Assembly (NCBI GenBank): GCA_964535555.1
Contig: CAZHUS010000011.1
Coordinates: 16,804-80,803 of the forward strand
Reading direction: 5' to 3'
DNA: 64,000 bases
DNA from: an uncultured Verrucomicrobiota bacterium
GTDB lineage: Bacteria > Verrucomicrobiota > Verrucomicrobiia > Limisphaerales > J093
In this document: positions 1,154-55,652 of the stretch, piece after piece
Numbering within the stretch: the stretch's first letter is position 1
Layout: the number at the start of each line of letters is the position of its first letter
Position numbers and translations under genes: made by a program
The notes under the pieces: model-generated
Seen by the model: the letters and a program-made list of their open reading frames with translations, nothing else
Database searches by the model: none
What the model was told of the DNA's origin: nothing

Positions 1154-1841
1154 TCACTTGCCCATCAGGTGTTCGAGCACCAATTGGTCGAGCGCCGCGT
1201 AGTTGCGGTCGGCCACAGTTTCTGGGCCTCGTCCTCGGGGAAGGAACGAGCCTTCTCGACGAGCCGCAGGAACGCCCGCCGGCTGTTTTCGAGGTGAGCG
1301 GTCCAGTGTTCGACCTTGGTGGTCCGGAACGGGTGCACATCGAACGCGACATACTCGCCCTTGCGGCCGTAGCCGTTGCGTTCGAGGGCGCGCACCTGGT
1401 TGAACGCGACGCGCAGGTTCGCGGACCCGAACGGCTTGTCCTGGTCGAACTTCAGGCCGTTCTGATTGTTGAGGTGAAGCGACCACAGTTTGCCGAACAG
1501 CGAAGCGAAATCGATCTCGTCCGCGGGGTCGAGTCCGGCCAGCAACGCATGCGCCGTCTCGATGAGGCAGCGCACGCGACGATCTCGGCCACGATGCCGG
1601 CGTCGTCGAGCTTCTTCTTGAGCGCCTTGGACTCGGCCTTGAGCTGGGCGTCGGACTTGTCGTTGATGTCCGGCACGGCGGCGTCGTCGTGGAACATCAT
1701 GGCGTCGTAGCCCAGTTCCTTGAGTTTCCCCAGCTTCCAGTCGAACGACTGGACCGGCCGGGTCGGCGGGCCGTAGGGATCCTGGCCCTCGCTCAGGTTC
1801 CAGGGACCGAAACAGAACTTGTACGTGATCGCTTTTGGCAT
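1154..1841 (-). pseudogene. xylose isomerase-like TIM-barrel (sugar phosphate isomerase/epimerase) pseudogene with an internal deletion and frameshifts
   Basis: Three fragments lie in three different frames. The N-terminal piece is MPKAITYKFCFGPWNLSEGQDPYGP...DDAGIVAEIVA (from ATG at 1841). At about 1571-1575 it jumps to RVRCLIETAHALLAGLDP...LHLNNQNGLKFDQDKPFGS. The true C-terminus ADRNYAALDQLVLEHLMGK* is in a third frame after a shift near 1213. About 130 aa of the barrel between the first two pieces is missing. Confidence 0.7.
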
Positions 1842-2263
1842 CGGTGTCGTGGCATGGAGCTTAGGAATCAGCGCCGCTTTGGGAAGGAACAAGCCCCTGT
1901 TGCCGCCTCCCGCTCCGGCGGAACGAGACGTGGACTTTTCAGCCGCCTTCGCAAAGCGCCGAACTGAGGAAGGGCCTCCAGCGCAAATCGACATCGAGAT
2001 CGATTTCACTGACCAAGACGTGGTCAGACAGGATGAACAGGATTTGCAGGATGGGATCTTCCCGAAGATGACCAAGGGAAGCGGTCTCGCCCTGATCCTT
2101 CACATCCTGTTCATCCTGTCTACAAATTGAGGCGGCCCTGTCCGCGAAAACCCTCGGCGCGACGGCGCGGAAATCTTCACGGGAGCCGCCCATGACCGGA
2201 TGCGGCTTGACGACGCCCGACACGCATCGAACTATCCATCGTAACGACCCCGCATCCTGAACC

Positions 2264-5200
2264 ATGCCCAAACTCTTCATCTCCCACAGTTCGCAGGACG
2301 ACGCGTTCGTTCGTGAACTGCGGGCCGCGCTCGCCGGACACGGTCAGGATGGCTGGGTCGATTCGCGCGAGCTGCGCGGGGGTGATCCGCTCTGGATGGA
2401 GATTCAGCGGGCTCTTGAGGACGCATCGGCCTACGCGGTTGTTGTCAGCACCGATGCGTTGCAGTCCAAGTGGGTTGGCAAGGAGTTGCGCCACGCGCTC
2501 AAGCTTCGGGACGAGCGCGGCAAAGAGAAGTTCCCCGTCATCCCGCTTTCGCTGAACAGCACGAAGCTCGGTGTGCTCGAAGAGTTCTTCGGCGAGGAGC
2601 CGCTCTACATCCCTGTCAGCAGCGACGCCGGCGGTATCGAGGCGGCGATGAATGCGATCCTCGTCGCGATGGGCAAACGACTCCCGGCAGACGTAGCCGC
2701 CACCCCGCAGCCCCGGGCCGAGCCGCTGGAAGAACTCGTGCTTGAGCTCACCGACTTGAAGTTCCAGGAGCAGGACGGCGTCCGCCGCGCGACGGCCCGG
2801 GCGCGCCTGGTTTATGAGCCGGCCACGCCGGGGCAGCCAGGCGTCCATAGCGTCCAAAGCTGGCGTCTCGTCGCCCCGATCGGCCCCATCGAGGCCGGGG
2901 AACTGCGCTGGTATTTGGAGCACTATTCGATCTGGCCCAGCCACTACTTCCGGGACCGCGCGCGCAAGGTGGAGGAGAATCTCGTCAAGTGGGGCCAGTT
3001 GCTGCACGACGCGGCCATGCCTGCAGCTCACCGGGAGAACGTGATGACCGCATGGGGTAAGATCGGGGAGCACGCCGGACGCCGCTTCTCGGTGCACGTG
3101 GATGCGGCGCTGGAAGCCGGCGCGCCAGATGCCGAGGTGAAGGCCGCCCAGGAGGCGGCCACGCTCTTGCTCGGCCTGCCTTGGGAATTGTTGCACGATG
3201 GGAAGAGATTTCTCTTTCAAGGTGCGACTCCCACTCGCGTCCGCAGGCGGCTGCCGGGCACCGAAGTGCTGGGCGTTCCCGTCGTCGCCACGCCCATCCG
3301 CATCCTGCTCGTCACGGCGCGGCCGGAAGACGAGGCCTGCGGGTACATCGACCACCGCGCCAGCGCGCTGCCGCTGGTCGAGGCGATGGAAGCGCTGCCG
3401 GGCCTGGTGAAGATGCACGTCCTGAGCCCGCCGACGCTGCCGGCGTTGCGCGACGAACTTGACCGTGCCCGCACCGCCCGCACGCCGTATCACGTCGTGC
3501 ATTTCGATGGCCACGGCGTCTATGACCGCACCGTGGGCCTCGGGGGGCTGTGCTTCGAGCACCCGGAAGACACCGGCAAGCTCGACGAGCGCCGGCACGC
3601 CACCGTCTTTACCAGCGAGCTCGGGCCGCTCCTGCGTGATCACCGCATCCCGCTGGTCTTCCTCGAAGCCTGCCAGACGGCGACCGCGGAAAAGGCGTCC
3701 GAGTCGGTCGCCTCGGAGCTGCTCAAGGTTGGCGTGGCCTCTGTGGTCGCCATGAGCCACAGCGTCCTGGTCGAGACCGCCCGCCGGTTCGTGGCGGTGT
3801 TTTACCGGGCGCTCGCGGCCGGCAAACGCGTCGGCGACGCCATGCTCGCGGGCCAGCGGGACCTCGAGGGGAATAAATCGAGGGGCCGCGTCTTCGGCGT
3901 GGATGAACTGAAACTCCACGACTGGTTCGTGCCCGTGCTCTTCCAGGAAAAGGACGACCCGCAGCTCTTCAGGAGGACGCCCGCGAAGCAGACGGTGGAG
4001 GATTTCCAGGCGGCGCTCGCGTCGCGCCTCGGCCGGCTGCCCGAAACGCCGAGGACCGGTTTTGTCGGACGCAGCCGGGAACTGCTCGCGCTCCAGCGGC
4101 TGCTTCGGCACGAGCGCTACGCCGTGGTGCGTGGGCAGGGCGGCGAGGGGAAGACGGCGCTGGCGGCCGAGTTCGCCCGCTGGATGGTGCGATCGCAGCA
4201 GGTTCAGCGCGCCGCGTTTGTCTCGGTCGAAACCCACAGCCATCGTCTGGCGGTGCTCGATGCCGTCGGCAGGCAGCTCGTGGGAGAGAATTACTCGGCC
4301 GCCGCCTTCGACGATGTGGAAAAGGCGATCCTGCCCATCGAACGCGCGCTGCGTGAGCAATCCACCCTGCTGGTGGTGGACAACATGGAGAGCATCCTCC
4401 TCCCGCCGTTCGTGGTGGCGGAAACCTCGTTCCCCGGGAGCGCACGCGGCTCGCGTGCCGAATCCGCCGGCCCGCCGGATTCTCCATCTTCCGATTCCGT
4501 CGTTGATAGGGATAGCGGAGGAAGCGAGGGGGACGGGGTTTTCGGCGGGCCGCCGAAAACAGCAGGCCGGCGGCCTGCGCTCCCCGGCGCGGCCATGGCC
4601 GCCCTCTCGGAGGACATGCACCGCGAGGTGACGGCCATTCTCGCCCTGTGCGACCGCCTGTTGAAGGTGGGCGACACGCGTCTCGTCTTCACCAGCCGCG
4701 AGGCGTTGCCGGCGCCGTTCGATGCCGCGCGGCATCGGCGCGAGCTGCACCGGCTCGACAAGGAAGATGCGGTGAAGCTGGTGGAGCGCACGTTGAATGC
4801 GGAGGGCGGTGATGGCGCGGCCACGGATGCGGCACGCGAGGAAATCGAGCAACTTGTGGAAGCCGTCCATCGCCATGCGCGGACGCTGGCGCTGCTGGCG
4901 CCGGCGCTAAGGGAACGTGGGGTCGAGGCGACGCGCAAGTCGCTCGTCGAGCTGATGGCGGCGATGGAGGAACAATTCCCCGGCAGCCGGGAGCAATCGG
5001 TCTTCGCCAGCGTCGAGCTTTCCCTCCGCCGCATGTCGCCGGAGAACTGGAGCACGCGCCCGACCTCTGGGCCGCCGCCGCCGGGTCAGGAGACCCGGCC
5101 TACAACCTGTAGGCCCGGTGCCTTCACCGGGCGGCCCGCAGGCAGGGTGCTCGCGCTCGGGGTGTTCCGCGGCGGGGTCAACATCGTGGTCCTTCGCCTG

Positions 5201-6904
5201 ATGATGCAGTGGGAAGAGGCAGAAGTGGCCTCGCTGGCGGGCGAGTTGGTCGGAACGGGGCTGGCGACGCTAAATCGCTTCAACCATCTCACGCTCAGTC
5301 CCGCCCTTTGCCCCTACCTGCGCGGGCGGATGGACGCCGCGGAGCGCGAGCCGCTCACGGCCCGCTGGGTCGAGACGATGCGCGCGTATGCCGGGTTCCT
5401 CGTGCAGCAGCAGAGCCAGAACATCGAAGTCGCGGCGACACTGACGGTGCTGGAGCTGCCGAACCTCTTTGCGCTGCTCGAACTCGTGCAGCGCGCAGGC
5501 GATCCGGAAGCGACGATTGGCCTGGCCACTTCGCTCTACAGCCTGCTGCAAATGCTCGGCCGGCCGCGGCTGCTCGAGCGCGTGGGGCAAGTGCGCGACG
5601 CCGCGGCGGCGGCGCTGGGCGATGCCTGGAATCACGCGCGGTTCGAGGCGGCGCGGACCCGCATCGAGCAGCAGTGGGCCGGCGGGCGGCTACGCGGGGC
5701 GTTCGAGGGCGCGCAGCAGTTGCTCCAGCGCGCCCGGACGGCGGGCGAGCAGGCGTATCCCGGCGCCGATTACGATCTGGCGATGGCCTGCTGGCTCCTG
5801 GGCCGCGTGCTGAAGACGGCCGGTGGCTCGGAACAGGCCCTGCCGCTACTGGACGAGGCCCGCCAGCGCTTCGAGGCCGTCGAGGAGCGTAGGCCCGGCT
5901 GCGGCGCAGCGGGGATGGCGTCCGTCTCCATCACGGAACAAGGCGACTGTCTTCGGGACCTGGGCCGGCTCGACGAAGCGGCGGCGGCCTACGAAGAGAA
6001 CATCCGCCGCGCCGAGCAACTCAATGACGCCCGGCAGGTCGCTGTGGGCAAAGGCCAGCTTGGGACCGTTCGTATGCAGCAGCGCCGCTACCCGGAGGCG
6101 CTGGCGGCTTATTCCGAAGCGCGCGAGCGGTTCACGCAGTTGGACGAACCGGGCATGGTGGCCGTGAGCTGGCATCAGACCGGCATGGTGTATCAAGAGG
6201 CGGGGCAGCCGGAAGCGGCAGAGGATGCCTACCGCAAATCGCTCGCGATCGAGGTGCGGCTCGGCAATGTCGCCGGGCAGGCGAAAACGCTGAATGAACT
6301 TGGAATTGTGTATGACGATCTCCTCGGGCGAACGGAGGAAGCCGTGGCTTTCTTCCGCCAAGCTGCGGACAAGGCCGTTGAGATCAGCGACGTAGCGGAG
6401 GAAGGCGGGCACAGAAGCAACCTCGCAATCCGCCTGCGCAAACTCCGCCGATTGGACGAAGCGCGGCAGGAAATCCACCGGGCGATCGAGTGCAATGCGC
6501 AGTTCGGCCACGCATCCGAGCCGTGGAAGACCTGGGCCATCCTCGCCGACATCGAGACGGACGCCGGCCACGCCGCCGCCGCCGCGGAGGCGAAGGGCAA
6601 GGCCATCGCCTGCTATCTCGCCTACCGCCGCGACGGCGGCGAGAACCACTTCCCCCATGGCCGCATCGCCCTCGCCGTGACCCAATCCCTGCGCGCCGGC
6701 AATCCCGCCGAGGCCGCGTCCCTCCTTCAGCAACTCGCCGCTCACCCGAACGCCACCGGCGGGCTCGGCACTTTCATCCGCGCTCTCCAGGCCATCGTCG
6801 CCGGCCGCCGCGATCGCACCCTCGCCGACGCTCAGGAATTCCACCCCACGATGGCCGCCGAAATCCTCTTCCTGATTGAAACCCTGGAAAAGGCCGGCAT
6901 GTGA
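2264..6904 (+). CDS. TIR-CHAT-STAND (NB-ARC-like P-loop NTPase)-TPR multidomain protein, 1546 aa
   Basis: N-terminal TIR: MPKLFISHSSQDD...SKWVGKELRHAL, with the conserved Glu. CHAT His/Cys dyad: HVVHFDGHGVYD and LVFLEACQTATAE. Walker A is GQGGEGKTALA and Walker B is LLVVDNMES. The C-terminus is TPR-rich (AYRKSLAIEVRLGNVAGQAKTLNELGIVY and similar). One uninterrupted ORF. Confidence 0.9.
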   Translation: MPKLFISHSSQDDAFVRELRAALAGHGQDGWVDSRELRGGDPLWMEIQRALEDASAYAVVVSTDALQSKWVGKELRHALKLRDERGKEKFPVIPLSLNSTKLGVLEEFFGEEPLYIPVSSDAGGIEAAMNAILVAMGKRLPADVAATPQPRAEPLEELVLELTDLKFQEQDGVRRATARARLVYEPATPGQPGVHSVQSWRLVAPIGPIEAGELRWYLEHYSIWPSHYFRDRARKVEENLVKWGQLLHDAAMPAAHRENVMTAWGKIGEHAGRRFSVHVDAALEAGAPDAEVKAAQEAATLLLGLPWELLHDGKRFLFQGATPTRVRRRLPGTEVLGVPVVATPIRILLVTARPEDEACGYIDHRASALPLVEAMEALPGLVKMHVLSPPTLPALRDELDRARTARTPYHVVHFDGHGVYDRTVGLGGLCFEHPEDTGKLDERRHATVFTSELGPLLRDHRIPLVFLEACQTATAEKASESVASELLKVGVASVVAMSHSVLVETARRFVAVFYRALAAGKRVGDAMLAGQRDLEGNKSRGRVFGVDELKLHDWFVPVLFQEKDDPQLFRRTPAKQTVEDFQAALASRLGRLPETPRTGFVGRSRELLALQRLLRHERYAVVRGQGGEGKTALAAEFARWMVRSQQVQRAAFVSVETHSHRLAVLDAVGRQLVGENYSAAAFDDVEKAILPIERALREQSTLLVVDNMESILLPPFVVAETSFPGSARGSRAESAGPPDSPSSDSVVDRDSGGSEGDGVFGGPPKTAGRRPALPGAAMAALSEDMHREVTAILALCDRLLKVGDTRLVFTSREALPAPFDAARHRRELHRLDKEDAVKLVERTLNAEGGDGAATDAAREEIEQLVEAVHRHARTLALLAPALRERGVEATRKSLVELMAAMEEQFPGSREQSVFASVELSLRRMSPENWSTRPTSGPPPPGQETRPTTCRPGAFTGRPAGRVLALGVFRGGVNIVVLRLMMQWEEAEVASLAGELVGTGLATLNRFNHLTLSPALCPYLRGRMDAAEREPLTARWVETMRAYAGFLVQQQSQNIEVAATLTVLELPNLFALLELVQRAGDPEATIGLATSLYSLLQMLGRPRLLERVGQVRDAAAAALGDAWNHARFEAARTRIEQQWAGGRLRGAFEGAQQLLQRARTAGEQAYPGADYDLAMACWLLGRVLKTAGGSEQALPLLDEARQRFEAVEERRPGCGAAGMASVSITEQGDCLRDLGRLDEAAAAYEENIRRAEQLNDARQVAVGKGQLGTVRMQQRRYPEALAAYSEARERFTQLDEPGMVAVSWHQTGMVYQEAGQPEAAEDAYRKSLAIEVRLGNVAGQAKTLNELGIVYDDLLGRTEEAVAFFRQAADKAVEISDVAEEGGHRSNLAIRLRKLRRLDEARQEIHRAIECNAQFGHASEPWKTWAILADIETDAGHAAAAAEAKGKAIACYLAYRRDGGENHFPHGRIALAVTQSLRAGNPAEAASLLQQLAAHPNATGGLGTFIRALQAIVAGRRDRTLADAQEFHPTMAAEILFLIETLEKAGM

Positions 6905-7124: not shown

Positions 7125-8129
7125 TCAGCGTGCGGCCTGCAAACGCGCGAGCTGGAGGAGCAGCGTTTCGAGCCGGCGGTAATAGTCGTCCTCGGCCAGC
7201 GAGGCCTTCTTGTCCCGCAGGCGGAAGACCTCGAGCTCGAGGGCGTCGCGACGGGAGCGGAGTTCCGGCGAGAGCGCCTGTTCTTCCGGGCTCAGGACCA
7301 GACTGAGTTGATGCGCGCGCCAGCCGTCCACGGCGCCCGCCTGCTGGCTCTTCTTCACGGCGCGAACGCCACGAAACCAGTCCGACGGCGTGCCCAACCC
7401 GTCGCCGTTGTCGTCGATCAGCGCGTGCTCGGTCGCGAGCCGGCCCTCGGTCTTGTAGAACTCGGCCACCCGCGACGCCGCACTCAGGAAGGCCTCGAGC
7501 ACCGAGGTCTGACCGTCCTTGTCGAGGTCGCTGTCCGGGCTGGCAATCGCCTGGGCGAGGTACGTTCCGAAGCGGGTGAAGTTCTGTTCGTTGCCGCTGC
7601 GGGTCGCGGTGATCACGATGCGGTTGGTGGCGGAGAGCTTCGTCAGGAACGGGGCGCTGGCCGAGGTGGTGTTGACGACAAGCAGCGGGCGCTCGACGGG
7701 CTTCAGCCATTCGGCGAGTTCGGTGGCGGTAAAGTCGGGTCCGCGGAGGTTGAACCGGGCTTCCTTGTTGTCGAACGTGCCGTGGCCGATCAGGACGAGC
7801 CAGAGCGGTGCGGTGGCGGCGCGGGATTCGGTGTCGAGATGCTCGCGGAGGCGGGCGAGATCGTTGGTCTGGACTGAGCCGGGTTCGAGATCAGGCGTTC
7901 CCACGGTCAACAGCGTGGCTCCGGCCCGCTTGCCCGCCGCGGTCCAGGCTTCGGCTTGTGCGACAAAGTTGGTGCCGAATTCGGGTTCGCCCGGAGCTCC
8001 TATGACCAGGAGGAGCGTGGGGGCGGAGGAAGCGGGTTGAGGAGAGGCGGCGTCGCTGGCGAGGGTGGGACAGGTGAGAGAGAGCAGGGTGAGGAGGAGG
8101 AAAAGACGGAGGAAGGTGGGAGAGAGCAC
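7125..8129 (-). CDS. secreted hypothetical protein, last gene of the Bat-like cluster (possible caspase/legumain-like fold lacking the Cys)
   Basis: A GTG at 8129 gives the signal peptide VLSPTFLRLFLLLTLLSLTCPTLA. The longer ORF extension runs through a repeat copy (8171-8287) and was rejected. Motifs: LWLVLIGHGTFD then LLVVNTTSASAPF. Confidence 0.55.
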   Translation of the reverse strand: MLSPTFLRLFLLLTLLSLTCPTLASDAASPQPASSAPTLLLVIGAPGEPEFGTNFVAQAEAWTAAGKRAGATLLTVGTPDLEPGSVQTNDLARLREHLDTESRAATAPLWLVLIGHGTFDNKEARFNLRGPDFTATELAEWLKPVERPLLVVNTTSASAPFLTKLSATNRIVITATRSGNEQNFTRFGTYLAQAIASPDSDLDKDGQTSVLEAFLSAASRVAEFYKTEGRLATEHALIDDNGDGLGTPSDWFRGVRAVKKSQQAGAVDGWRAHQLSLVLSPEEQALSPELRSRRDALELEVFRLRDKKASLAEDDYYRRLETLLLQLARLQAAR

Positions 8130-8170
8130 GGAGACGTGGAGGGACGCCTCCGCGGAACCTCGCCCACCCC

Positions 8171-8287
8171 ATGAACCGACCTCGAAAAGCGGCGGTGAAC
8201 CCCCGCACTCCAAACGCTTCGCGACCTCGGAAACCCGGCTGGCAAGCGCGGTGCGTTTGGAGCGCGTCCGGTTTACCGGCGCTTTTG
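8171..8287. repeat. about 115-bp palindromic REP/MITE-like element, family 1, copy A
   Basis: Aligns with 46889-47004 and 59615-59729. Shared blocks are GAAAAGCGG...GCACTCCA(A/G)(A/G)CGCTTCGCGAC...GCG..GCGTTTGGAG(C/T)GCGTCCG.TT.A.CGGCGCTTTT. The two halves are reverse complements of each other, so the element can fold as a long hairpin. Confidence 0.8.
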
Positions 8288-8425
8288 AGTCAGCTGTCCC
8301 GATGAAAGAAGGAAGCGGCTGGACGCGGCCTCGCCCTACCTGGTCGACGAGATGCGTCTCCGCGCCGCGTCGCTGCACCAGGGCGGGTCGCCCCACCGGG
8401 CAGTGAACCGGAAGAGATCGCATCG

Positions 8426-10825
8426 TCATGGCAGGCCTTTCGAGCGTCTCAGGCCCCATTCCGTGGCGAAGCAGGCCAGGGCGGCCAGGAACATCCAGGG
8501 CGTGTGCCACAGGGGACGGGTCATCGGCTCCATCACGGGTGCGCTGCGCGTCGGGAGGCCTTCAACGAATTCGCCCAAGGCCGACATGGGAACCAGGTCC
8601 CCGCCGGTCTGCCTGGCGATGGCCGTGAGCAGCGGCAGGTTCGGCTGCAGCGAGCGGAACTCCTGCGCCGCCAGGTCGACACTCCAGCCTGCCTGAACCC
8701 GGCCGATCTCCATGCCGTCCGGGCCGGTGGCCACGGCCGTGGCACGGTACGCGCCGCTTTCGCGCGGCACGAACGTCGCCTCGTAAAGTCCGGCTTCCTG
8801 GAGTGACGGCTCGGCACGCAACCGGATGGTGTTCGTCGCGACGGCGGCGGCTGTTGCCACGACGGTATTGGTCCCCGGGAGCGCCTCACGGTTGGGGGCC
8901 ATCACCGGGTCGATGTCGATGGAGACGGTGGCGTCGTCCAAGGCTTCGAAGGCGGGATTGCGCACGCGCACCTGCACCGTGGCGATTTCGCCCCGCTCTT
9001 CCACGTTCAGCTCCACGCGCCGGGGCACGTCGGACACCAGCCAGCGCACCAACTGGCGCCACGCCTTCTCCATGTCCCGACGGGCGTCCGCATCGCGCAT
9101 TCCCCAGCGCCAGACATCGCCCACGAGAAACGCCGCGGTGCGCCCGCGTCCAAACCGTTGGGTCACCAGCGCCGGTTGCTGGTGTCCGGCTTCATCGTCG
9201 GCCACGGCGATCACGCTGGCGCCGGGTTTCACATCGCGCACGCGGTTGAAGACGAGGAAGGGAGGCATGCCTTCGAGGCGGACTTTCTCATCGCCTTCGT
9301 TGTCGCGGAGTCGCGACCAGGCCTGGAGCCAACCCTCCCGGTCGAGGTTGAGGCGCTGGGCGCCGGGCGGTTTCGGATCCTCGGGCCGATCGAGGTAGAC
9401 CGGGAGCGTGTCGCCGATGGGCGTGCGGTGGTAGCCGCCTTGCTGGAACGACTCGGCGCCGCCCAGCATCAGGAAACCGCCGCCGCGTTCGGAAACGAAC
9501 CGCTGCAGCAGGGCGGCCTGGTCCGCCGCGAAGAAACCGGCTTCGATGTCGTCGAGGATGACCGCGTCGTAGGCGTAGAGTTCCTCGGCGGTGCGTGGAA
9601 AGCCGCCGCGCAATTCGAGTTCGTCGCGGGTGTTCAGGCGCGTGAGCACCGGCTGGTCGTAACGCTGGACCTCCTCGCGCGACTGGTCGCCGAACCCGCG
9701 GAACAGCGGGTTGCCCGTCTCCCCGGCGCGGCCAATGAACTCGAACTTCGGCTCGCGGAGTGCGATGCGAATGAGCCCGACCAGTTGCACCTGCTCGTCC
9801 TCCGCCAGCGCGCGGTTGAGGAACTTGTATTCCCAGTTGGGCCGCCCGGCAACGTACAGAACTCGATGCGGACCCTGGCCGCGGTCCACGGGAAGCATGC
9901 GCGTGTTGTTCAGGAGCGTGGCCTCCCGGGACTCCGCTTCCTCGGTGCCGGGCGCCCGTTCCTCCCGCGAGGCGACGCGGAGTTGGTAGAAGGAGAGGCC
10001 CGGTTTGTCCGGCCGGATCTGAAAACGAAAGGCGAGCGTTTCCGGGCTCTTGCGGGTCCGGAGAGTCTGCTCGTGGGCCACGCGGCCGGTGGAGTCGAGG
10101 AGTTGCGCCACGACGGGTTCGCCGGCAAAGCCGGTCGCCGCCACGTCCGACCGTATGGTCACCGGCGCGTCTTCGAAGGCGGTCTGGCTGATTTGCGACT
10201 GTCCAAGTGCGAGGTCCCGAGCCGGACCGTCGCGGCCCATGACCACGGGGTACACCGGAGGCATCGAATCGCCCAGCTCAGCGGCGTCCGCAAGGTCGGT
10301 GGCATTGCCGTCGGTGAAGAGGAGCACCCCCGCCAGCGGCCGGTCGGAGAAGCGCTGGGCGATGCCTCGCAGCGCTGCGCCCAGACTCGACGAACGGCCT
10401 TCGAACGAGAGTTCGCCGAAGTCCCGTGTGGCATGCAGCCGGGCGTCGAAGTAGAAGCGGCGCGTTTCGAAGTCCGCCTCGAGCTTCTCAGGCCAGTTGC
10501 CGCTCCGTGGTTCGACGAGCTCGCGCAGGATCTCGCCACGCGAGCGGTTCTCGCCCCGGTCCTTCACCTGGAAGCTTTCGCTGTTGTCGGCCAGCACGAC
10601 AAACAGGTTGGCACCGGGGCGCACGCGTTGTCCGGACCAGAGCGGCTCGAGCAGGCAGAACGCGAGCAATGCGGCGCCCAGGGCCTTCAGGGCGGCGCAG
10701 ATCCCCTTCCATGATCCGGGCGGCCCCGAACGATAGCTCCAGAGCACGGCGACGACGGCGAGGCCCGCCGCGATCAGCGCCGGCCAGAACCAGCCCGCCC
10801 CTGAGAATGTGAGAGCGCTCAGCAT
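8426..10825 (-). CDS. membrane protein with a class-I glutamine-amidotransferase-like domain (Bat-like operon member)
   Basis: N-terminal TM helices: WFWPALIAAGLAVVAVLW and ALGAALLAFCLLEPLW. GATase1-like stretch: VLYVAGRPNWEYKFL...YDAVILDDIEAGFF...GGGFLMLGG. C-terminal TM. Lies in an operon with VWA/MoxR genes. Confidence 0.65.
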   Translation of the reverse strand: MLSALTFSGAGWFWPALIAAGLAVVAVLWSYRSGPPGSWKGICAALKALGAALLAFCLLEPLWSGQRVRPGANLFVVLADNSESFQVKDRGENRSRGEILRELVEPRSGNWPEKLEADFETRRFYFDARLHATRDFGELSFEGRSSSLGAALRGIAQRFSDRPLAGVLLFTDGNATDLADAAELGDSMPPVYPVVMGRDGPARDLALGQSQISQTAFEDAPVTIRSDVAATGFAGEPVVAQLLDSTGRVAHEQTLRTRKSPETLAFRFQIRPDKPGLSFYQLRVASREERAPGTEEAESREATLLNNTRMLPVDRGQGPHRVLYVAGRPNWEYKFLNRALAEDEQVQLVGLIRIALREPKFEFIGRAGETGNPLFRGFGDQSREEVQRYDQPVLTRLNTRDELELRGGFPRTAEELYAYDAVILDDIEAGFFAADQAALLQRFVSERGGGFLMLGGAESFQQGGYHRTPIGDTLPVYLDRPEDPKPPGAQRLNLDREGWLQAWSRLRDNEGDEKVRLEGMPPFLVFNRVRDVKPGASVIAVADDEAGHQQPALVTQRFGRGRTAAFLVGDVWRWGMRDADARRDMEKAWRQLVRWLVSDVPRRVELNVEERGEIATVQVRVRNPAFEALDDATVSIDIDPVMAPNREALPGTNTVVATAAAVATNTIRLRAEPSLQEAGLYEATFVPRESGAYRATAVATGPDGMEIGRVQAGWSVDLAAQEFRSLQPNLPLLTAIARQTGGDLVPMSALGEFVEGLPTRSAPVMEPMTRPLWHTPWMFLAALACFATEWGLRRSKGLP

Positions 10826-10991: not shown

Positions 10992-13900
10992 TCATCGCTG
11001 CTTGCCCAGTTCCTCGTAGTACCGCCGCACCAACTCCGCAAAGCGGACCGGAACCGGGTCGCGATCAATCGGCACCAGGTCAGAGGCAGGTTCGCGCCGC
11101 GCAAGTTCCTCGGCGATCTGCTGTCGCACTTCCACCAACGGCTTCACGATATCGAGGCGAACCACGGCCCAGTCGGGCTTTTTCTGCTCCCGGCGAAAGT
11201 CCTGTCGCATCTGGCGGGCACGCTCCCGCGCGGTGGCGATGTCGCTGCGCAACGAAGGTAGATCCACCATCTCCTCGACTTCGCGCAACCGATCCGACCA
11301 GGGCCCGAACTCCTCGCCGGTGATGGGACCGCTGCCGCGGCGATTGCCGCCTTCCATAAACTGATCCAGGGCATCGGCGACGGGCACGCCACCTCCGCCT
11401 CCGCCATCGGGCGCACCCCTCTCCTGCAACGAGCCGCCCCGGCGCTGGTTCGAACCGTCGCGAGCCTGATCGGCATTGCGCGGCTGGCGTTGGCCGTCGC
11501 GCCCCGCTCCGGCGCGGTCGCCCGGAGCTTGTCCCGCTGCGCCGGTTTCGCCGGGATTCTGTTCGCCTTCGCCGGGGCCCGGTTGGCCGGAGGCCTGGGC
11601 TTGCTGCGGTCCGTCCCGACGCTGCCCTTCGCCCTGGCCCTGGCCCTGGCCCTGGCCTGGTTGGCCTTGATTCTGGGGCTGGCCGGCCTGGGCTTGTTGG
11701 GAATTGCCCTCGCCCGGTTGCCGTCCCGGCTGACGTTCGCCCGCGCCTTCACCCGGCTGGCGGCCTTCGCGGTTCTGCTCACCTTGCTCGGAACGATCGC
11801 CGCCCGGGGCCTGTTCGTCGTCGGCCGTGGCGGACTCGCCGCGTTCGGCACGCGCGACCTCGCGCTCGATCTGTTCCGTGAGCGCGTCGAGCTCGCGCTG
11901 GGCGGTGCGCAGCGCCTCGGTATCGTCGCCGAGGACGCGTTCGGCGGCGCGCTCAACGCCGCGGCGCATCTCGTCGATGCCGGCGCGGGCTCGTTCCTCG
12001 GCGCTGTCGGCCTGGGGCAGGTAGCCCTGGCGCAACATCTCGGCGGTGACTTCGAGGGACTTGGCGCCTTCGCTGGCGGCGGTTTGTTCGAGGCGTTCGA
12101 GCAGGCTGCGGGTGAGCATGCCGCGGTCGAGCAGCTCCTGCTGCATCTCCTTCACCACGGAACCGTCGTCCTGGGTGAAGCGCCGGACCGCGTCGTAAAG
12201 ATGCTGGGAAACGAGCGGCTCCGAGGCCTCGGCCTGTTGGGAGACCTGGGTGGCGCGCTCGACGAGGTTGGTGAGGCGGCCCTTCTGGTCGGCAAGTTGC
12301 TCGACGAGTTGCTGCCGTTCGGCGGAGTCGCTGAGACTCTGGCGTTCGGTGGAAGCGAGCTGGTCAAGCTCCTGTTGAATCGCCTCCTGCCGGCGCGAAA
12401 GCTCCCGGGCGTCGCTGCGCATCTCGCGAAGTTCTTCGCCAAACTCGCCGGCGCTCTCACGGCGCAGTTCATCGCGCATGTCCTGCATCTGGCGTTGGGC
12501 GCGAGTACCGGCGGCCAGGGCCTGGGAAACCGCGCCCTGCTCCGTGGCTTCGGCAGCCCGCTGCATGTCCTGGCGCGCCTGGTCAAGCTGCTGACGCTGG
12601 TCGGCCATGCGGGACTGCTCTTCGGCGCGGTCCATCCGCTGCTGAAGTTCGTCCACGTCCGCGAGCATTTCGCGTTGCTCCTCCTGGAGGCGCTTCAGTT
12701 CGCGGCGCAGTTCCTCGCGTTCCTGCTCGGTCCGGGCCTCCTGCAGGGCGGTCTGGAGTTCCTTCAGTCGTTCATTGACGTCCTGCTGACGGCGGGCGAG
12801 TTCGGCGAGGCGGTTCAAGACCTGGAGCTGTTCGCGGCGTTCGCTGCTCTGGGGCGCTTGCGCCTGGCGTTCCGTCTCGTAGCGGTTCTCGTCCTGGGTG
12901 AGCTCGAGCTGGTCGAGCTGCCGTTGCATTTGCTGCTGACGCCCGCCGGCCTGCTGGCCCTGGCTGCGATTCCGGTTGCGCGTCACTTCGTACTCGCGCT
13001 GCTGGAGACGCAGCAGCGCCTGGTAAGCGGATTGTTCCGCGGCAAGGGCCGTGGGCAGCGGTTCCGGGGAATTCACGGCTTCCTCGAGTTCGGCTAGTGC
13101 GAGCTCCATTTCCTTGAGGGCCGTCTTCCAAAAGGCGGCGGTGCGGGCGTCGCGGGTTTCGCCTGAGGCTTCGGTGGCCTGCTCGAGCGCCTGGGCCTGG
13201 GAGTCGCGCACGACGGTGGCATCCTTCGAGTAGGACTCAGCCACCTTCGACTTCCCCGTGTGATGGTCACGCTGCAGGCGCCAGGTGGCGTTGATGATCT
13301 GCTTTTGCAGTTCAGCCAGCCGGGCCGAGGGACTTCCTTCGCCCTGCTCTCCGGGTTGTTGTCCCTGCTGTTGCTGCTGGCCTTCGGCGCCCTGGCCCTC
13401 GCGGAAGATTTCGTCGAAGGGGCGCACCTCGGCGAAGTACATGTCGCCCGCCGTCCGACGCACCGCGCCGTCGGGACCGATGTCGTCTGCCCAAACATAC
13501 CAGGCGAGGAGCTGGTCAGGCGCCACGCCAAGATCCTCGAGCCGGAGCAGGTGCCGAAACGGGCGCTGCTCGCGGGCGGGCACCGGCCGACCGAGATCGA
13601 GATAACGCGTTTCCTGTCCCGCCAGCGTGTACGCGAGGCCGTGGGCTTCGACGCCGAAGTCGTCCCAAACACTGCCCTCGAAAGCGATCTCCTCGAGGGC
13701 CGACGGACGGCTGTCGCCGCGCGGCGAGGCGATCTTGAGTTCCGGCGTCCGGTTCTTGAGGGCGCTGAAAACGAACGAGGCCGGCAGCTTGTTGGTGCGG
13801 CCGTCGGCATCCACCAATTCGAGGTGGTACGTGCCGCTCGCCTCCAGCGTGAAGCCCTCGAGCGTCGCCGAAGGCTGGTTGGTGGCGACCAGGAGCGACA

Positions 13901-14966
13901 CGGGGGCTGGCAGGATGCCCGAATCCTCCGCGATTTGAGCCAGTGCCGAGAGGGTATTGGTGCCGGCGGGATCGTTCCGGGGGCGCGGCGTTCTTTCGCG
14001 ATCCGGCGGCACGAGCCGGGCCGACACGACGGGCTTGTTGAGCTGCAGGGCGAGGTCGATGCGCGTGCCCTCGACCGCGCTCAGGCGCCGCGTGTCTTCG
14101 ATGCGCTTCGGTTCCAGCCGCGTGTAAACGGGGTAGGTGAGATTGGCGTCGGCACGTTCGAGTCGCGGATACTCGAAGGTGGTGACCTTGAACTCCCGGG
14201 TTTCATCTTCGCCAAACTCGATCTTGTAGAACAGGTCCGAACTGACCCCCGGCACGGTGCCGCCGAACATGGGATCCGACAGGCTCTTCACCAGGGCGAT
14301 CCGGCGCGTCGAACCGTCCGGTTCGCGCACCACGAGATCCACGTTCGCGGGAACCGGTCCGCCAAACCGCGCCATCACCACCAGGCTCTCACCGCGCTCG
14401 AGTTGCGTGTCGCCGGGGGTGACGGTGATGCCGGAAGGAAGCCGCGGGCTGGCGGCGAGCCGTTGGGCGGCCCCCGGTTGCAGGCGCGTGAAGGCGAAGA
14501 CCACGAGTCCCAAGGCAAGGAGGTTGGCCGCCTGGCCCGTCCAGACCCGGGACCAGGGAATCACCTGCGGCCAGGGGTGACGGTAGCTGTGGTCCAGCAC
14601 CTCATCGACAAGACGCCGTTGCAGGAAGCCAGGTTCGACGTCGGGTTCCGTCTGGGCCTGGACCGCCGTGAGCAACCGGCCTTCCAGCTCCGGATGCCGG
14701 ACTTCGAGGAGTCTTGCCAGCCGTCGCCAGTCGGGTTGGGCCCGGCGATGTCTCCACGCCAGGACTGCCGCGGCGAGGAATCCGAGCGTTGCGGTGACCG
14801 GAAGGACCCACCGCGAGCTGCCCGCGAGCTCACGCGTCAGGGTCAATGCGGCGAGTCCGGCAAGCAGGGTGAACACCCAACAAACGGCGAGCTTGCAGGC
14901 GAGTTCAAGTTGACGCTGCCGCCGCCAGAGCGGCATGAGGCGCGACTTCAGGAAAGGATCATTCAT
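10992..14966 (-). CDS. large membrane-anchored coiled-coil protein (DUF4175-like), Q/E/R-rich
   Basis: The start MNDPFLKSRLMPLWRRQRQ at 14966 overlaps the upstream stop as ATGA. Two N-terminal TM helices are followed by long Q/E/R-rich coiled-coil and G/Q/P-rich low-complexity regions. Position after the BatA-like gene is typical for this family. Confidence 0.75.
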   Translation of the reverse strand: MNDPFLKSRLMPLWRRQRQLELACKLAVCWVFTLLAGLAALTLTRELAGSSRWVLPVTATLGFLAAAVLAWRHRRAQPDWRRLARLLEVRHPELEGRLLTAVQAQTEPDVEPGFLQRRLVDEVLDHSYRHPWPQVIPWSRVWTGQAANLLALGLVVFAFTRLQPGAAQRLAASPRLPSGITVTPGDTQLERGESLVVMARFGGPVPANVDLVVREPDGSTRRIALVKSLSDPMFGGTVPGVSSDLFYKIEFGEDETREFKVTTFEYPRLERADANLTYPVYTRLEPKRIEDTRRLSAVEGTRIDLALQLNKPVVSARLVPPDRERTPRPRNDPAGTNTLSALAQIAEDSGILPAPVSLLVATNQPSATLEGFTLEASGTYHLELVDADGRTNKLPASFVFSALKNRTPELKIASPRGDSRPSALEEIAFEGSVWDDFGVEAHGLAYTLAGQETRYLDLGRPVPAREQRPFRHLLRLEDLGVAPDQLLAWYVWADDIGPDGAVRRTAGDMYFAEVRPFDEIFREGQGAEGQQQQQGQQPGEQGEGSPSARLAELQKQIINATWRLQRDHHTGKSKVAESYSKDATVVRDSQAQALEQATEASGETRDARTAAFWKTALKEMELALAELEEAVNSPEPLPTALAAEQSAYQALLRLQQREYEVTRNRNRSQGQQAGGRQQQMQRQLDQLELTQDENRYETERQAQAPQSSERREQLQVLNRLAELARRQQDVNERLKELQTALQEARTEQEREELRRELKRLQEEQREMLADVDELQQRMDRAEEQSRMADQRQQLDQARQDMQRAAEATEQGAVSQALAAGTRAQRQMQDMRDELRRESAGEFGEELREMRSDARELSRRQEAIQQELDQLASTERQSLSDSAERQQLVEQLADQKGRLTNLVERATQVSQQAEASEPLVSQHLYDAVRRFTQDDGSVVKEMQQELLDRGMLTRSLLERLEQTAASEGAKSLEVTAEMLRQGYLPQADSAEERARAGIDEMRRGVERAAERVLGDDTEALRTAQRELDALTEQIEREVARAERGESATADDEQAPGGDRSEQGEQNREGRQPGEGAGERQPGRQPGEGNSQQAQAGQPQNQGQPGQGQGQGQGEGQRRDGPQQAQASGQPGPGEGEQNPGETGAAGQAPGDRAGAGRDGQRQPRNADQARDGSNQRRGGSLQERGAPDGGGGGGVPVADALDQFMEGGNRRGSGPITGEEFGPWSDRLREVEEMVDLPSLRSDIATARERARQMRQDFRREQKKPDWAVVRLDIVKPLVEVRQQIAEELARREPASDLVPIDRDPVPVRFAELVRRYYEELGKQR

Positions 14967-35131: not shown

Positions 35132-35307
35132 GGGATGGTCGGGGTACCCGGCCTGAAGGTGGTAGGCCCGGTGCCTCCACCGGGCGTAGCGCAGGCTTTC
35201 CAGCCTGCCGGTCCACCGGGCTTTCCAGCCCGGCAGCAGCCTCGGCGATTGGGAAGTCGCCGCGACTGGCAGCCAGCGATCACTGCCTTACCTCCTCGTC
35301 TCATGGT

Positions 35308-55503: not shown

Positions 55504-55652
55504 TCCGCCTCCTGACGTCGGCGCCTACAGGGGAGCGGGGCCGGCCTACAGGTTGTAGGCCGGGTGCCCACACCGGGCGGTTCCAAGTTCCAAGCAGGGC
55601 GCGCTGTCCCTGTCGCGCCGAACGCGGCGGGCAACGGAGTGCCCGCCCTACC
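55504..55652. repeat. composite GC-rich repeat (family 3 modules)
   Basis: Four modules in order. First CCGCCTCCTGACGTCGGCGCCTACAG. Then the hairpin GGCCTACA-GGT-TGTAGGCC. Then the hairpin GGGTGCCCACACCGGGCGG. Last the REP hairpin GGCGGGCA-ACGGAG-TGCCCGCC-CTACC. Each module recurs elsewhere in the window. Confidence 0.8.

What the first reader, a model, noticed from the sequence alone, without database searches (positions are those of the whole stretch)
2264..6904. Single 1546-aa TIR-CHAT-STAND-TPR protein: candidate one-gene, two-effector immune or abortive-infection sensor
One uninterrupted ORF combines four parts.
- A TIR domain that keeps the conserved Glu (SKWVGKELRHAL).
- A CHAT caspase-like protease with an intact His/Cys dyad (HFDGHG and LEACQT).
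- A P-loop STAND NTPase (GQGGEGKTALA and LLVVDNMES).
- A long TPR array.

From established knowledge, STAND NTPases with TPR sensors and N-terminal effectors act as pattern-recognition anti-phage proteins (Avs/bNACHT-like). TIR NADases and CHAT proteases are each known effector modules.

Carrying both effectors in series on one STAND scaffold is unusual, and as far as I know has not been functionally characterised. The gene is monocistronic. It sits next to a decayed sugar-isomerase pseudogene and repeat clusters, which fits accessory status.
Basis: partly seen in the sequence, partly recalled or inferred. Interest (0 to 1): 0.75.

Follow-up and report, generated by a model that had tools for sequence, protein, structure and literature searches.

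The report
Solitary TIR–protease NLR-like sensor gene
This is a real single gene for a bacterial NOD-like-receptor-type switch that carries two intact "cell-killing" enzymes in series, an NAD-cleaving TIR and a caspase-like CHAT protease; it belongs to a large, uncharacterised family that has spread between bacterial phyla, which makes it a good but not radically new candidate immune sensor.

Summary
ORF 2264-6904 (+) encodes 1546 aa with these parts:
- TIR (Pfam 1.8e-20; fold match to AbTir)
- a conserved β/α linker domain
- CHAT (3.5e-20; fold match to SAVED-CHAT)
- a STAND NTPase (fold match to the Pyrococcus STAND-TPR protein 6mfv and to Apaf-1)
- a helical arm, TPRs and a C-terminal helical domain

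All catalytic residues are conserved in 79-80 of 80 sampled homologues.

The gene belongs to a large family of about 1460 aa, found in at least 451 species genomes of many phyla. It is always a solitary gene, with no conserved neighbour and no shared flanks. Cross-phylum dS is unsaturated (0.5-1.2) and dN/dS is about 0.2, which indicates lateral spread under purifying selection.

It matches no full-length PADLOC or NCBIfam model, and I found no paper on it.

The window's copy is unusual: two palindromic repeat elements have inserted in frame (56 and 30 aa) into the NTPase module.

The most likely mechanism is ligand-triggered, ATP-dependent oligomerisation that activates both effectors by proximity. 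This is inferred, not shown. Association with defence islands is weak. I rate it a new variant of a known kind (bacterial NLR/Avs-like).

The parts
2264..6904 (+). Whole gene, 1546 aa: TIR, β/α linker domain, CHAT, STAND NTPase, helical arm, TPR, C-terminal helical domain
   Evidence: ORF list and translation. Full-length homologues at 70-80% identity. Coding-type codon-position GC.
2264..2683 (+). TIR domain (residues 1-140). The putative catalytic Glu74 is at nt 2483-2485 and Trp70 lies four residues before it.
   Evidence: Pfam TIR_2, E 1.8e-20. Foldseek match to AbTir 7uxu with TMt 0.76, and to SPARTA and SARM1 TIR domains. The residue-by-residue alignment places W70/E74 on the W/E of AbTir. 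E74 is present in 80 of 80 homologues.
2720..3163 (+). Conserved β-hairpin plus helical domain between TIR and CHAT (residues 153-300). No family assigned.
   Evidence: The AlphaFold model has a long β-hairpin (155-185) and helices (208-265) at pLDDT about 80. Identity within subfamily A is 0.76 and dN/dS is 0.17. TIR-less relatives begin exactly here. Distant CHAT-STAND-TPR proteins on Nostoc and Streptomyces plasmids align from about residue 202.
3164..3898 (+). CHAT caspase-like protease domain (residues 301-545). His417 is at nt 3512-3514 and Cys470 at nt 3671-3673.
   Evidence: Pfam CHAT, E 3.5e-20. Foldseek match to the SAVED-CHAT filament 8tl0_I, E 8.6e-6. H417 and C470 are each present in 79 of 80 homologues. 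This is the most conserved domain (0.84 identity).
4058..4426 (+). STAND nucleotide-binding domain, first part (residues 599-721). Walker A is GQGGEGKT, with Lys630 at nt 4151-4153. Walker B is LLVVDNMES, with Asp706 at nt 4379-4381.
   Evidence: Sub-threshold NB-ARC, AAA_22, nSTAND and NACHT hits. NB-ARC passes the cut-off in homologue P0121 (31.6 bits). K630, D706 and E709 are present in 80 of 80 homologues. Fold match to 6mfv and Apaf-1.
4427..4594 (+). Insertion 1: 168 nt (56 aa), in frame, a palindromic MITE-like element. It lies between the Walker B strand and the helix before the sensor-1 strand, and is unique to this copy.
   Evidence: Absent from all aligned homologues. It has 56-nt inverted arms, 4433-4488 and 4532-4587. 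Its codon-position GC looks non-coding (0.73/0.75/0.68). The segment has pLDDT below 50 in the model. The site is a length-variable loop (9-33 aa) in subfamily B. No other copy was found in the window.
4595..5047 (+). Rest of the nucleotide-binding domain and the helical domain (residues 778-928), including the sensor-1 motif TRLVFTSRE (Arg812).
   Evidence: The model has a β-strand followed by a helical bundle at high pLDDT. R812 is present in 80 of 80 homologues.
5048..5137 (+). Insertion 2: 90 nt (30 aa), in frame. It is a copy of a short dispersed palindromic (REP-like) element and sits in the loop at the start of the winged-helix domain. Unique to this copy.
   Evidence: Absent from all homologues. 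It has 28-nt inverted arms, 5077-5104 and 5108-5135. Related copies lie at 35137-35196, 55541-55580 and 62556-62581. The segment has low pLDDT.
5138..5863 (+). Winged-helix domain and helical arm (residues 959-1200).
   Evidence: Secondary structure of the model. Aligned to 6mfv and Apaf-1. dN/dS is 0.21 for the winged helix and 0.34 for the arm.
5864..6901 (+). TPR array (residues 1201-1430) and C-terminal helical domain (1431-1546). This is the presumed sensor.
   Evidence: TPR_12, E 3.9e-24. Fold matches to the LGN/Pins and kinesin light chain TPRs. It has the highest dN/dS in the protein, 0.29 and 0.44, still below 1.
2026..2121 (.). 27-nt inverted repeat (93% complementary, 42-nt spacer), about 140 nt upstream of the start codon. 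Role unknown; it could be an operator, a terminator of the dead upstream gene, or a repeat element.
   Evidence: the repeat finder. The 17-mer occurs only here in the window, against 0.07 matches expected by chance.
1225..1823 (-). Context only: decayed xylose-isomerase pseudogene, in two fragments in different frames with the middle deleted.
   Evidence: phmmer against PDB xylose isomerases gives E 3.9e-7 for residues 10-85 and E 7.5e-13 for residues 216-324. Coordinates.

Best explanation
The gene encodes a one-protein NLR-like (STAND) molecular switch.

**Inferred mechanism, from how STAND proteins, TIR domains and caspase-like proteases are known to work**
- At rest the protein is an ADP-bound monomer, held closed by its helical arm, TPRs and C-terminal sensor.
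- A trigger molecule binds the sensor. The trigger is most plausibly a protein of an invading phage or other mobile element.
- Binding allows nucleotide exchange and oligomerisation of the NTPase modules.
- Oligomerisation brings the N-terminal parts together. This assembles the composite NAD+-cleaving site of the TIR domains and activates the CHAT protease.
- NAD+ loss and proteolysis then arrest or kill the cell before the invader spreads.

**Shown here**
- The domain folds.
- Intact catalytic residues that are conserved across the family.
- Equal purifying selection on both effectors.
- A somewhat faster-evolving sensor.
- The solitary, laterally mobile nature of the gene.

**Inferred**
- The trigger.
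- Oligomerisation.
- Both enzyme activities.
- The cell-level outcome.

The CHAT-STAND-TPR part is the core of the family. The TIR domain is an add-on that some relatives lack.
For: **Folds and domains**
- TIR, CHAT and TPR pass the Pfam cut-offs.
- Foldseek matches the TIR to AbTir, SPARTA and SARM1, and the CHAT domain to SAVED-CHAT.
- Foldseek matches the NTPase-sensor part to the STAND-TPR protein 6mfv (E 2.2e-11), to Apaf-1 and to a plant resistosome.

**Catalytic residues** in 80 sampled homologues from two subfamilies
- Present in 80 of 80: E74, K630, D706, E709 and R812.
- Present in 79 of 80: H417 and C470.

**Selection, per-domain dN/dS**
- TIR 0.16, CHAT 0.17, nucleotide-binding domain 0.14.
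- Helical arm 0.34, TPR 0.29, C-terminal domain 0.44.
- This is the pattern expected of constrained effector and switch modules with a more plastic sensor.

**Single-gene unit**
- No partner gene: no ORF cluster recurs among the ±6 neighbours of 84 loci.
- No Pfam or PADLOC family occurs in more than 3 of 150 immediate neighbours.

**Accessory and mobile**
- Homology to the closest relative stops exactly at the ORF ends.
- Flanks are shared only between close relatives.
- Cross-phylum dS is 0.5-1.2.
- Gene GC exceeds flank GC by 3.6 points on average.
- Some copies are broken by an IS element or by frameshifts.
- Several genomes carry two copies.

**TIR is optional**
- TIR-less relatives start at the linker domain.

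**Literature on the class**
- STAND proteins with TPR sensors and N-terminal TIR or caspase-like effectors are treated as defence or conflict sensors (PMC13581612, PMC7159879, PMC8195603).
Against: - No experiment supports the mechanism, and no trigger is known.
- PADLOC gives no full-length match. The TIR-NLR model hits only residues 1-87 at E 2.9e-4, and there are no Avs hits.
- Defence-island association is weak. Five of 8 annotated contexts are plain housekeeping neighbourhoods.
- No close relative is on any sequenced plasmid or phage.
- The sensor shows no sign of positive selection (dN/dS below 0.45), unlike an arms-race receptor.
- In this window's copy, two repeat elements sit inside the NTPase module, so this allele may be impaired.
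- The model of residues 1-600 has only moderate confidence (pLDDT 66.8), with the Cys470 loop below 50.
Confidence: 0.55

Rival explanations
1. Internal relay rather than two parallel effectors. On activation the TIR domain makes an NAD-derived nucleotide signal that switches on the CHAT protease of the same protein or oligomer. That would be a fused version of type IV Thoeris placed under STAND control. Alternatively, the protease cuts the linker and releases the TIR domain.
For: - In type IV Thoeris a TIR product (N7-cADPR) activates a caspase-like protease (bioRxiv 10.1101/2024.10.24.620036).
- The TIR here has the AbTir-like W-x3-E arrangement. From my memory of the AbTir work, this arrangement goes with cyclic ADPR production.
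- A conserved domain of unknown role (residues 153-300) sits between the TIR and CHAT domains and could bind a ligand or carry a cleavage site.
Against: - TIR-less relatives keep the linker-CHAT-STAND-TPR body, so the protease does not depend on a TIR in cis.
- The CHAT domain matches no Thoeris model in NCBIfam or PADLOC.
- The STAND module already supplies an activation mechanism.
Confidence: 0.12
2. The family is a regulated cell-death or proteolytic signalling switch that responds to an endogenous or environmental cue rather than to phage. The cue could be stress, metabolic state or kin/non-kin conflict, as proposed for apoptosis-like systems of socially living bacteria.
For: - Many copies lie among housekeeping genes with no defence neighbours.
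- The sensor is under purifying selection with no hypervariable region.
- There is weak CHAT-level similarity to the cyanobacterial cell-division protease HetF (E 2.1e-6).
- Distant CHAT-STAND-TPR relatives are concentrated in filamentous cyanobacteria and actinomycetes.
- The hosts are largely biofilm or floc formers, such as Competibacter and Accumulibacter.
Against: - Patchy distribution, lateral transfer, IS-disrupted copies and differing contexts fit an accessory conflict gene better than a physiological regulator.
- TIR and caspase-like effectors on STAND scaffolds count as defence-type effectors in current surveys (PMC13581612).
Confidence: 0.15
3. Whatever the family does, the copy in this window is a functionally impaired or dying allele. 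The two repeat-element insertions in the NTPase and winged-helix region disable switching. The open frame survives only because the insertions are recent.
For: - Both insertions are unique among more than 200 relatives.
- They have the composition of non-coding DNA.
- They lie in the module that must undergo precise conformational change.
- The neighbouring gene is already a pseudogene.
- Other family members are seen split or hit by an IS element.
Against: - Both insertions are multiples of 3 and free of stop codons.
- Insertion 1 lies in a loop that varies naturally by 9-33 aa in subfamily B.
- Both insertions are modelled as surface loops between intact secondary-structure elements.
- The rest of the gene has no frameshift or stop.
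- All catalytic residues are intact.
Confidence: 0.25

Closest known systems
Bacterial STAND/NLR-like anti-phage sensors (Avs families, TIR-NLR, bNACHT), as surveyed in Lee et al., Nature 2026 (PMC13581612)
   Same: - One large protein with an N-terminal enzymatic effector, a central STAND NTPase and a C-terminal TPR-like sensor.
- A single-gene unit, spread laterally.
- TIR and caspase-like proteases are both listed among the effectors used by such proteins.
   Different: - Two catalytic effectors in series, plus an extra conserved linker domain.
- No full-length hit to any PADLOC Avs, TIR-NLR or bNACHT model.
- NACHT and NB-ARC are below the Pfam cut-offs in this protein.
- Weak defence-island association.
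- No known trigger.
Pyrococcus horikoshii STAND protein with a TPR sensor (PDB 6mfv)
   Same: It is the best structural match to residues 560-1546 (E 2.2e-11, 882 aligned columns). It has the same order of nucleotide-binding domain, helical domain, winged helix and TPR sensor.
   Different: - Sequence identity is only 13%.
- In the Foldseek table 6mfv_A is a 641-residue chain, aligned only to the NTPase-sensor part of this protein. The title of 6mfv names no effector domain.
- Its biological role is unknown to me.
Type IV Thoeris (TIR protein plus caspase-like protease; Rousset et al.)
   Same: It combines a TIR enzyme and a caspase-like protease in one immune pathway.
   Different: - There, the two are separate genes linked by a diffusible signal, and there is no STAND or TPR module.
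- Here they form one polypeptide under an NTPase switch.
- The protease is of the CHAT type, with no match to Thoeris models.
Apaf-1 apoptosome and plant TIR-NLR resistosomes
   Same: The same logic is inferred: a STAND switch whose oligomerisation activates a caspase (Apaf-1) or assembles TIR NADase sites (TNLs). There are fold matches to Apaf-1 and to a wheat resistosome.
   Different: - The effectors are fused rather than recruited through a CARD domain.
- Both effector types sit on one scaffold.
- The sensor is made of TPRs instead of WD40 or LRR repeats.
CHAT proteases of CRISPR type III systems (SAVED-CHAT, TPR-CHAT/Csx29)
   Same: The protease domain has the CHAT fold (8tl0, E 8.6e-6). 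Those proteases are also activated by assembly or by conformational change.
   Different: Activation there is by cyclic oligoadenylate or by target RNA bound to Cas7-11. This gene has no CRISPR context and no SAVED domain.

Membership tests
STAND NTPase superfamily | P-loop NTPase with Walker A (GxxxxGKT/S), Walker B (hhhhD plus a nearby acidic residue) and a sensor-1 Arg | tested here: met
   The motifs are GQGGEGKT (K630), LLVVDNMES (D706, E709) and TRLVFTSRE (R812). All four residues are present in 80 of 80 homologues.
STAND NTPase superfamily | Nucleotide-binding domain, helical domain and winged helix, followed by a repeat sensor | tested here: met
   The model has pLDDT 84.4. Foldseek gives 6mfv_A at E 2.2e-11 over 882 columns and Apaf-1 (3shf/3sfz) at about 4e-6.
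STAND NTPase superfamily | Ligand- and nucleotide-dependent oligomerisation | not testable with these tools
   Needs biochemistry or cryo-EM.
NB-ARC / AP-ATPase clade (Pfam PF00931) | Score above the Pfam gathering cut-off (23.5 bits) | tested here: inconclusive
   - Window protein: 21.1 bits, below the cut-off.
- P0002: 19.9 bits, below the cut-off.
- Subfamily B member P0121: 31.6 bits, above the cut-off, but covering only profile positions 22-109 of 248.
NACHT clade (bNACHT) | Pfam NACHT above its cut-off (26.7 bits) | tested here: not met
   16.0 bits for the window protein and 20.1 bits for P0002.
Enzymatic TIR domains (NADase) | TIR fold with the catalytic Glu in the position of the AbTir and SPARTA catalytic Glu | tested here: met
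   - TIR_2, E 1.8e-20.
- AbTir 7uxu, TMt 0.76.
- E74 and W70 align to the E and W of AbTir.
- E74 is present in 80 of 80 homologues.
Enzymatic TIR domains (NADase) | NAD+ cleavage or cADPR production | not testable with these tools
   Needs an enzyme assay.
CHAT / clan CD caspase-like proteases | CHAT domain above the Pfam cut-off, with a His-Cys dyad | tested here: met
   - CHAT scores 73.1 bits against a cut-off of 24.
- The dyad is H417 (HFDGHG) and C470 (LEACQT), each present in 79 of 80 homologues.
- Fold match to SAVED-CHAT 8tl0, E 8.6e-6.
Avs1-5 / TIR-NLR as modelled in PADLOC-DB v2 | Full-length match to a system model | tested here: not met
   There is no Avs hit. The TIR-NLR model PDLC03015 matches only residues 1-87, at E 2.9e-4.
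Type IV Thoeris | Two-gene operon of a TIR protein and a ThsE-type caspase-like effector | tested here: not met
   It is a single fused gene with no conserved neighbour. NCBIfam gives only weak TIR-level hits to other Thoeris types. The PADLOC copy predates type IV Thoeris.
Anti-phage defence system (general) | Enrichment next to known defence genes | tested here: inconclusive
   - L002 and L003 are rich in toxin-antitoxin, restriction-modification or integrase genes, and L089 partly so.
- L001, L004, L088, L090 and L091 are not.
- No family recurs among the immediate neighbours.
- No background control could be run.
Anti-phage defence system (general) | Protection against phage on expression | not testable with these tools
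   Needs an experiment.

The most novel reading that the evidence does not exclude
The two enzymes are not redundant killers. They would be obligatory steps of one relay built into a single NLR-like protein. In one version a TIR-made nucleotide licenses the CHAT protease through the conserved linker domain. In the other the protease releases the TIR domain. Either way this would be a fused "Thoeris-plus-apoptosome" device. Its sensor, conserved across phyla, would recognise something universal enough to let the same gene work after transfer between Planctomycetota, Proteobacteria, Acidobacteriota, Nitrospirota and others.
Probability: 0.12. Interest if true: 0.8.

Novelty: new variant of a known kind. 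Interest (0 to 1): 0.55.

Why it matters
Bacterial NLR-like proteins are the likely ancestors of the logic behind animal and plant innate immunity.

- **Two eukaryotic outputs on one protein.** This family places both classic outputs on a single bacterial scaffold: caspase-type proteolysis, as in the apoptosome, and TIR NAD+ cleavage, as in plant TNL resistosomes.
- **Experimentally tractable.** The family is abundant, compact (one gene) and conserved. That makes it a practical system for asking how one switch drives two effectors, and whether they act in parallel or in series.
- **Relevance to host range.** The unsaturated synonymous divergence between phyla shows that a 4.4-kb single-gene sensor can move and keep working across very different hosts. 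This bears on what such sensors recognise.
- **In-frame repeat elements.** The window's copy also shows repeat elements colonising a coding region in frame.

Tried and rejected
- **Exact-sequence look-up of the window protein's contig.** The closest relatives and neighbours suggest Planctomycetota, but this was not tested.
- **Search for a conserved partner gene or operon.** None was found among 84 loci, so the multi-gene system idea is rejected.
- **Search for a mobile vehicle.** No shared flanks or terminal repeats were found. No close relatives are on PLSDB plasmids, GenBank phages or IMG/VR, only CHAT-STAND-TPR proteins at 30% identity or less. The route of transfer is unresolved.
- **Sequence search of the linker-CHAT region against the PDB.** It gave only a spurious 20-residue haemoglobin match. 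The CHAT fold had to be shown by Foldseek instead.
- **Pfam on the upstream region.** ORFs and six-frame translations of 941-2270 found nothing. I nearly rejected the pseudogene claim, but a PDB search of two fragments I recognised by eye confirmed xylose isomerase.
- **Promoter scan.** No sigma-70-like site was found. This is uninformative for this kind of organism.
- **Inteins as an explanation for the extra length.** Rejected. The inserts are 56 and 30 aa and palindromic at the DNA level, and one is a dispersed repeat.
- **The 1873-aa and 1882-aa relatives.** These are N-terminal joins to an AAA_35 protein, possibly gene-calling fusions, not a new domain of the family.
Full report
**Observation**

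The window holds an ATG-started ORF at 2264-6904 on the + strand, 1546 codons long. In this 68% GC DNA long antisense ORFs are common; one of 899 aa overlaps the gene. The codon-position GC of the + frame (0.74/0.48/0.83) is that of real genes here, and the antisense frame's is not.

Pfam places these domains above their curated cut-offs:
- TIR_2 at residues 5-99, E 1.8e-20.
- CHAT at residues 301-540, E 3.5e-20.
- TPR_12 and related repeats at about residues 1225-1420, E 3.9e-24.

The NTPase region (600-711) gives only sub-threshold hits: NB-ARC 21.1 bits against 23.5, plus AAA_22, nSTAND1/3 and NACHT. So the STAND claim needed a structural test.

**Structure**

I split the protein in two, because the predictor takes at most 1200 residues. 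I supplied a 40-sequence alignment drawn from both subfamilies of relatives.

- Residues 560-1546 were modelled well (pLDDT 84.4, pTM 0.69).
- The best PDB match is 6mfv_A, the Pyrococcus STAND protein with a TPR sensor (E 2.2e-11, 882 aligned columns).
- Apaf-1 (about 4e-6), a wheat resistosome and many TPR proteins follow.
- Residues 1-600 were modelled moderately (pLDDT 66.8).
- In that half the TIR part matches AbTir (TMt 0.76) and the SPARTA and SARM1 TIR domains. The protease part matches the SAVED-CHAT filament 8tl0 (E 8.6e-6).
- A residue-level alignment puts Trp70 and Glu74 on the Trp and Glu of AbTir's WTNYE motif. From my knowledge of that enzyme, this Glu is the catalytic one.
It has a long β-hairpin and three helices, and it is well modelled and highly conserved.

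**The family**

- The protein search returned 2292 relatives at E ≤ 1e-10. The top 120 are nearly all 1455-1500 aa and 67-83% identical over the full length.
These cover Gamma- and Betaproteobacteria, Acidobacteriota, Planctomycetota, Verrucomicrobiota, Nitrospirota, Chloroflexota, Gemmatimonadota, Chlorobi, Magnetococcales and others. Almost all are metagenome-assembled genomes.
- There are two subfamilies, at 65-80% and 42-48% identity to the window protein.
- A search with residues 1-600 of 1.84 billion cluster representatives gave 653 clusters at E ≤ 1e-30. Dozens are full-length proteins matching residues 1-600 at 37-64% identity. There are also TIR-less relatives that begin at the linker domain.
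- In 80 sampled sequences the key residues are essentially invariant: E74, K630, D706, E709 and R812 in 80 of 80, and H417 and C470 in 79 of 80.

**Gene context and mobility**

- Clustering the ±6 ORFs of 84 loci found no recurring neighbour. The largest cluster covers 8 loci at scattered positions.
- Among 150 immediate neighbours, no Pfam or PADLOC family occurs more than three times.
- DNA similarity between the window and its closest relative (79-84%) starts 2 nt before the ATG and ends 10 nt before the stop. Flanks are shared only between near relatives.
- Synonymous divergence between the window copy and copies in other phyla is 0.53-1.22. This is far from saturation, so vertical descent since the phyla split is excluded.
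- dN/dS is 0.17-0.27.
- By domain, dN/dS is 0.14-0.21 for the TIR, linker, CHAT, NTPase and winged-helix parts. It is 0.29-0.44 for the helical arm, TPRs and C-terminus.
- The gene is on average 3.6 GC points richer than its flanks.
- Some copies are split, and one (Dechloromonas, L064) carries a DDE-transposase insertion.
- Several genomes hold two copies. One Accumulibacter locus (L013) has a second, 1123-aa TIR-CHAT-STAND protein in tandem.
- No close relative is on a sequenced plasmid, phage or IMG/VR contig. The vehicle of transfer is unknown.

**Defence association**

- PADLOC matches only the TIR and TPR parts. NCBIfam has no family model for the protein.
- Eight homologue contexts come with Pfam annotation. 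Two are full of toxin-antitoxin, restriction-modification or integrase genes (L002, L003). One has a couple of toxin-antitoxin genes (L089). Five are ordinary metabolic or housekeeping neighbourhoods.
Positive defence-island evidence is not strong either, and I could not run a background control.

**The window's own copy**

- Alignment shows two in-frame insertions found in no relative. The first is 56 aa (nt 4427-4594), just after the Walker B strand. The second is 30 aa (nt 5048-5137), at the start of the winged-helix domain.
- Both are palindromic at the DNA level, with 56-nt and 28-nt inverted arms.
- Both lack coding-type codon-position GC.
- Both correspond to the only low-confidence internal segments of the model.
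- Insertion 2 is a copy of a short dispersed element that also lies at about 35.15, 55.55 and 62.56 kb. Insertion 1 has no other copy in the window.
- The insertion-1 site is a loop that varies by 9-33 aa in subfamily B, so it may tolerate extra length.
- Whether this allele still switches properly is open. I put impairment at about 0.25.

**Neighbours in the window**

- Upstream, a xylose-isomerase gene on the minus strand has decayed into two out-of-frame fragments with its middle deleted (1225-1823).
- A 27-nt inverted repeat lies at 2026-2121, about 140 nt before the start codon.
- Downstream, the real gene is 7125-8510 on the minus strand. It is followed by a GATase1-like gene, an ORF with no family hit, and a BatA/VWA gene. 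The gene therefore stands alone between a dead gene and a convergent one.

**Mechanism**

The anatomy is that of an NLR-like switch: sensor repeats, a STAND NTPase and N-terminal effectors. From established knowledge of STAND proteins (Apaf-1, plant TNLs, Avs proteins) I infer the following steps.

1. The protein rests as an autoinhibited monomer.
2. A ligand binds the sensor.
3. Nucleotide exchange and oligomerisation follow.
4. The effectors are activated by induced proximity.

TIR NADase sites are composite and need TIR-TIR contacts, and caspase-like proteases are activated by assembly, so both effectors suit this logic. Equal and strong purifying selection on both, together with invariant catalytic residues, says both are used.

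The existence of TIR-less relatives says the CHAT-STAND-TPR body is the core and the TIR domain an added second output. This is why I favour parallel effectors over a TIR-to-protease relay of the type IV Thoeris kind. The relay is not excluded.

The trigger is unknown. Surveys of prokaryotic STANDs treat such effector-bearing clades as defence-associated, and many sense conserved phage proteins (PMC13581612). The mixed genomic contexts leave room for a non-phage cue.

**Comparison and novelty**

TIR-STAND-TPR and caspase-STAND-repeat proteins have been described computationally for two decades and in detail recently (PMC7159879, PMC8195603, PMC13581612). Some STAND families are experimentally proven phage sensors.

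This protein is not a member of any modelled Avs, TIR-NLR or bNACHT family. NACHT is below its cut-off, and NB-ARC is borderline.

What is distinctive:
- Two catalytic effectors in series on one scaffold.
- The extra conserved linker domain.
- The size and tightness of the family.
- Its evident movement between phyla as a bare single gene.

I found no paper describing this architecture. The library is incomplete, however, and the supplementary tables of the 2026 STAND survey were not available. It may already be listed there as one of 589 clades.

I rate it a new variant of a known kind, with interest 0.55. It is a solid, testable candidate with an appealing eukaryote-like logic, but a specialist would expect such combinations to exist.

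Noticed in passing
window 35137-35196, 55541-55580, 62556-62581 (and 5048-5137): A short dispersed palindromic (REP-like) element with the core ACCCGGCCTACAACCTGTAGGCCCGGTGCC. One copy has landed in frame inside the TIR-CHAT gene. I did not check whether the other copies are intergenic.
   Followed up: partly
window 4427-4594: A 168-nt palindromic element with 56-nt inverted arms, and a terminator-like hairpin on the minus strand at 4578-4562. It is inserted in frame in the NTPase domain. There is no second copy in the 64-kb window, so its family and origin are unknown.
   Followed up: partly
window 1225-1823 (-): A decayed class-I xylose isomerase. Residues 10-85 and 216-324 survive in different frames and about 130 residues are deleted between them. 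Pfam did not detect it; a PDB sequence search did.
   Followed up: yes
window 2026-2052 / 2095-2121: A 27-nt inverted repeat (93% complementary), about 140 nt upstream of the gene's start codon. The 17-mer ATCCTGTTCATCCTGTC occurs only here in the window. Its function is unknown.
   Followed up: partly
window 10992-15065 (-): A 1357-aa ORF with coding-type GC pattern but no Pfam hit. It lies in a stretch with strikingly negative AT skew on the + strand (-0.27 to -0.38 at 11-13.5 kb).
   Followed up: no
L064 11905-13278 and L059 about 12030-13525: In a Dechloromonas genome and a Gammaproteobacteria MAG the homologous gene is split by an insertion of about 1.5 kb. In L064 the insertion encodes a DDE transposase (DDE_Tnp_1, DUF772). 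The ORF in the L059 insertion has no Pfam hit.
   Followed up: partly
L013 14616-17984: In Accumulibacter phosphatis a second, shorter TIR-CHAT-STAND protein (1123 aa, with no Pfam TPR hit) lies directly downstream of the family member. The TIR-CHAT-STAND head therefore occurs on more than one body.
   Followed up: partly
P0153, P0154, P0158, P0159 and P0147 (relatives): Natural TIR-less members start at the β-hairpin linker domain. P0159 keeps only the first 20 or so residues of the TIR domain (FASHSSKDDGFV...), fused directly to the linker. This looks like a deletion remnant.
   Followed up: partly
P0022 and P0072 (relatives): Two relatives carry about 415 extra N-terminal residues with an AAA_35 domain. 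AAA_35 proteins are also immediate neighbours at two other loci. It could be a gene-calling fusion or an occasional partner.
   Followed up: no
L002 8454-8933 and L004 9268-9816: A Uma2-family (putative endonuclease) gene lies just upstream of the homologue in two unrelated contigs. The sample is too small to call an association.
   Followed up: no
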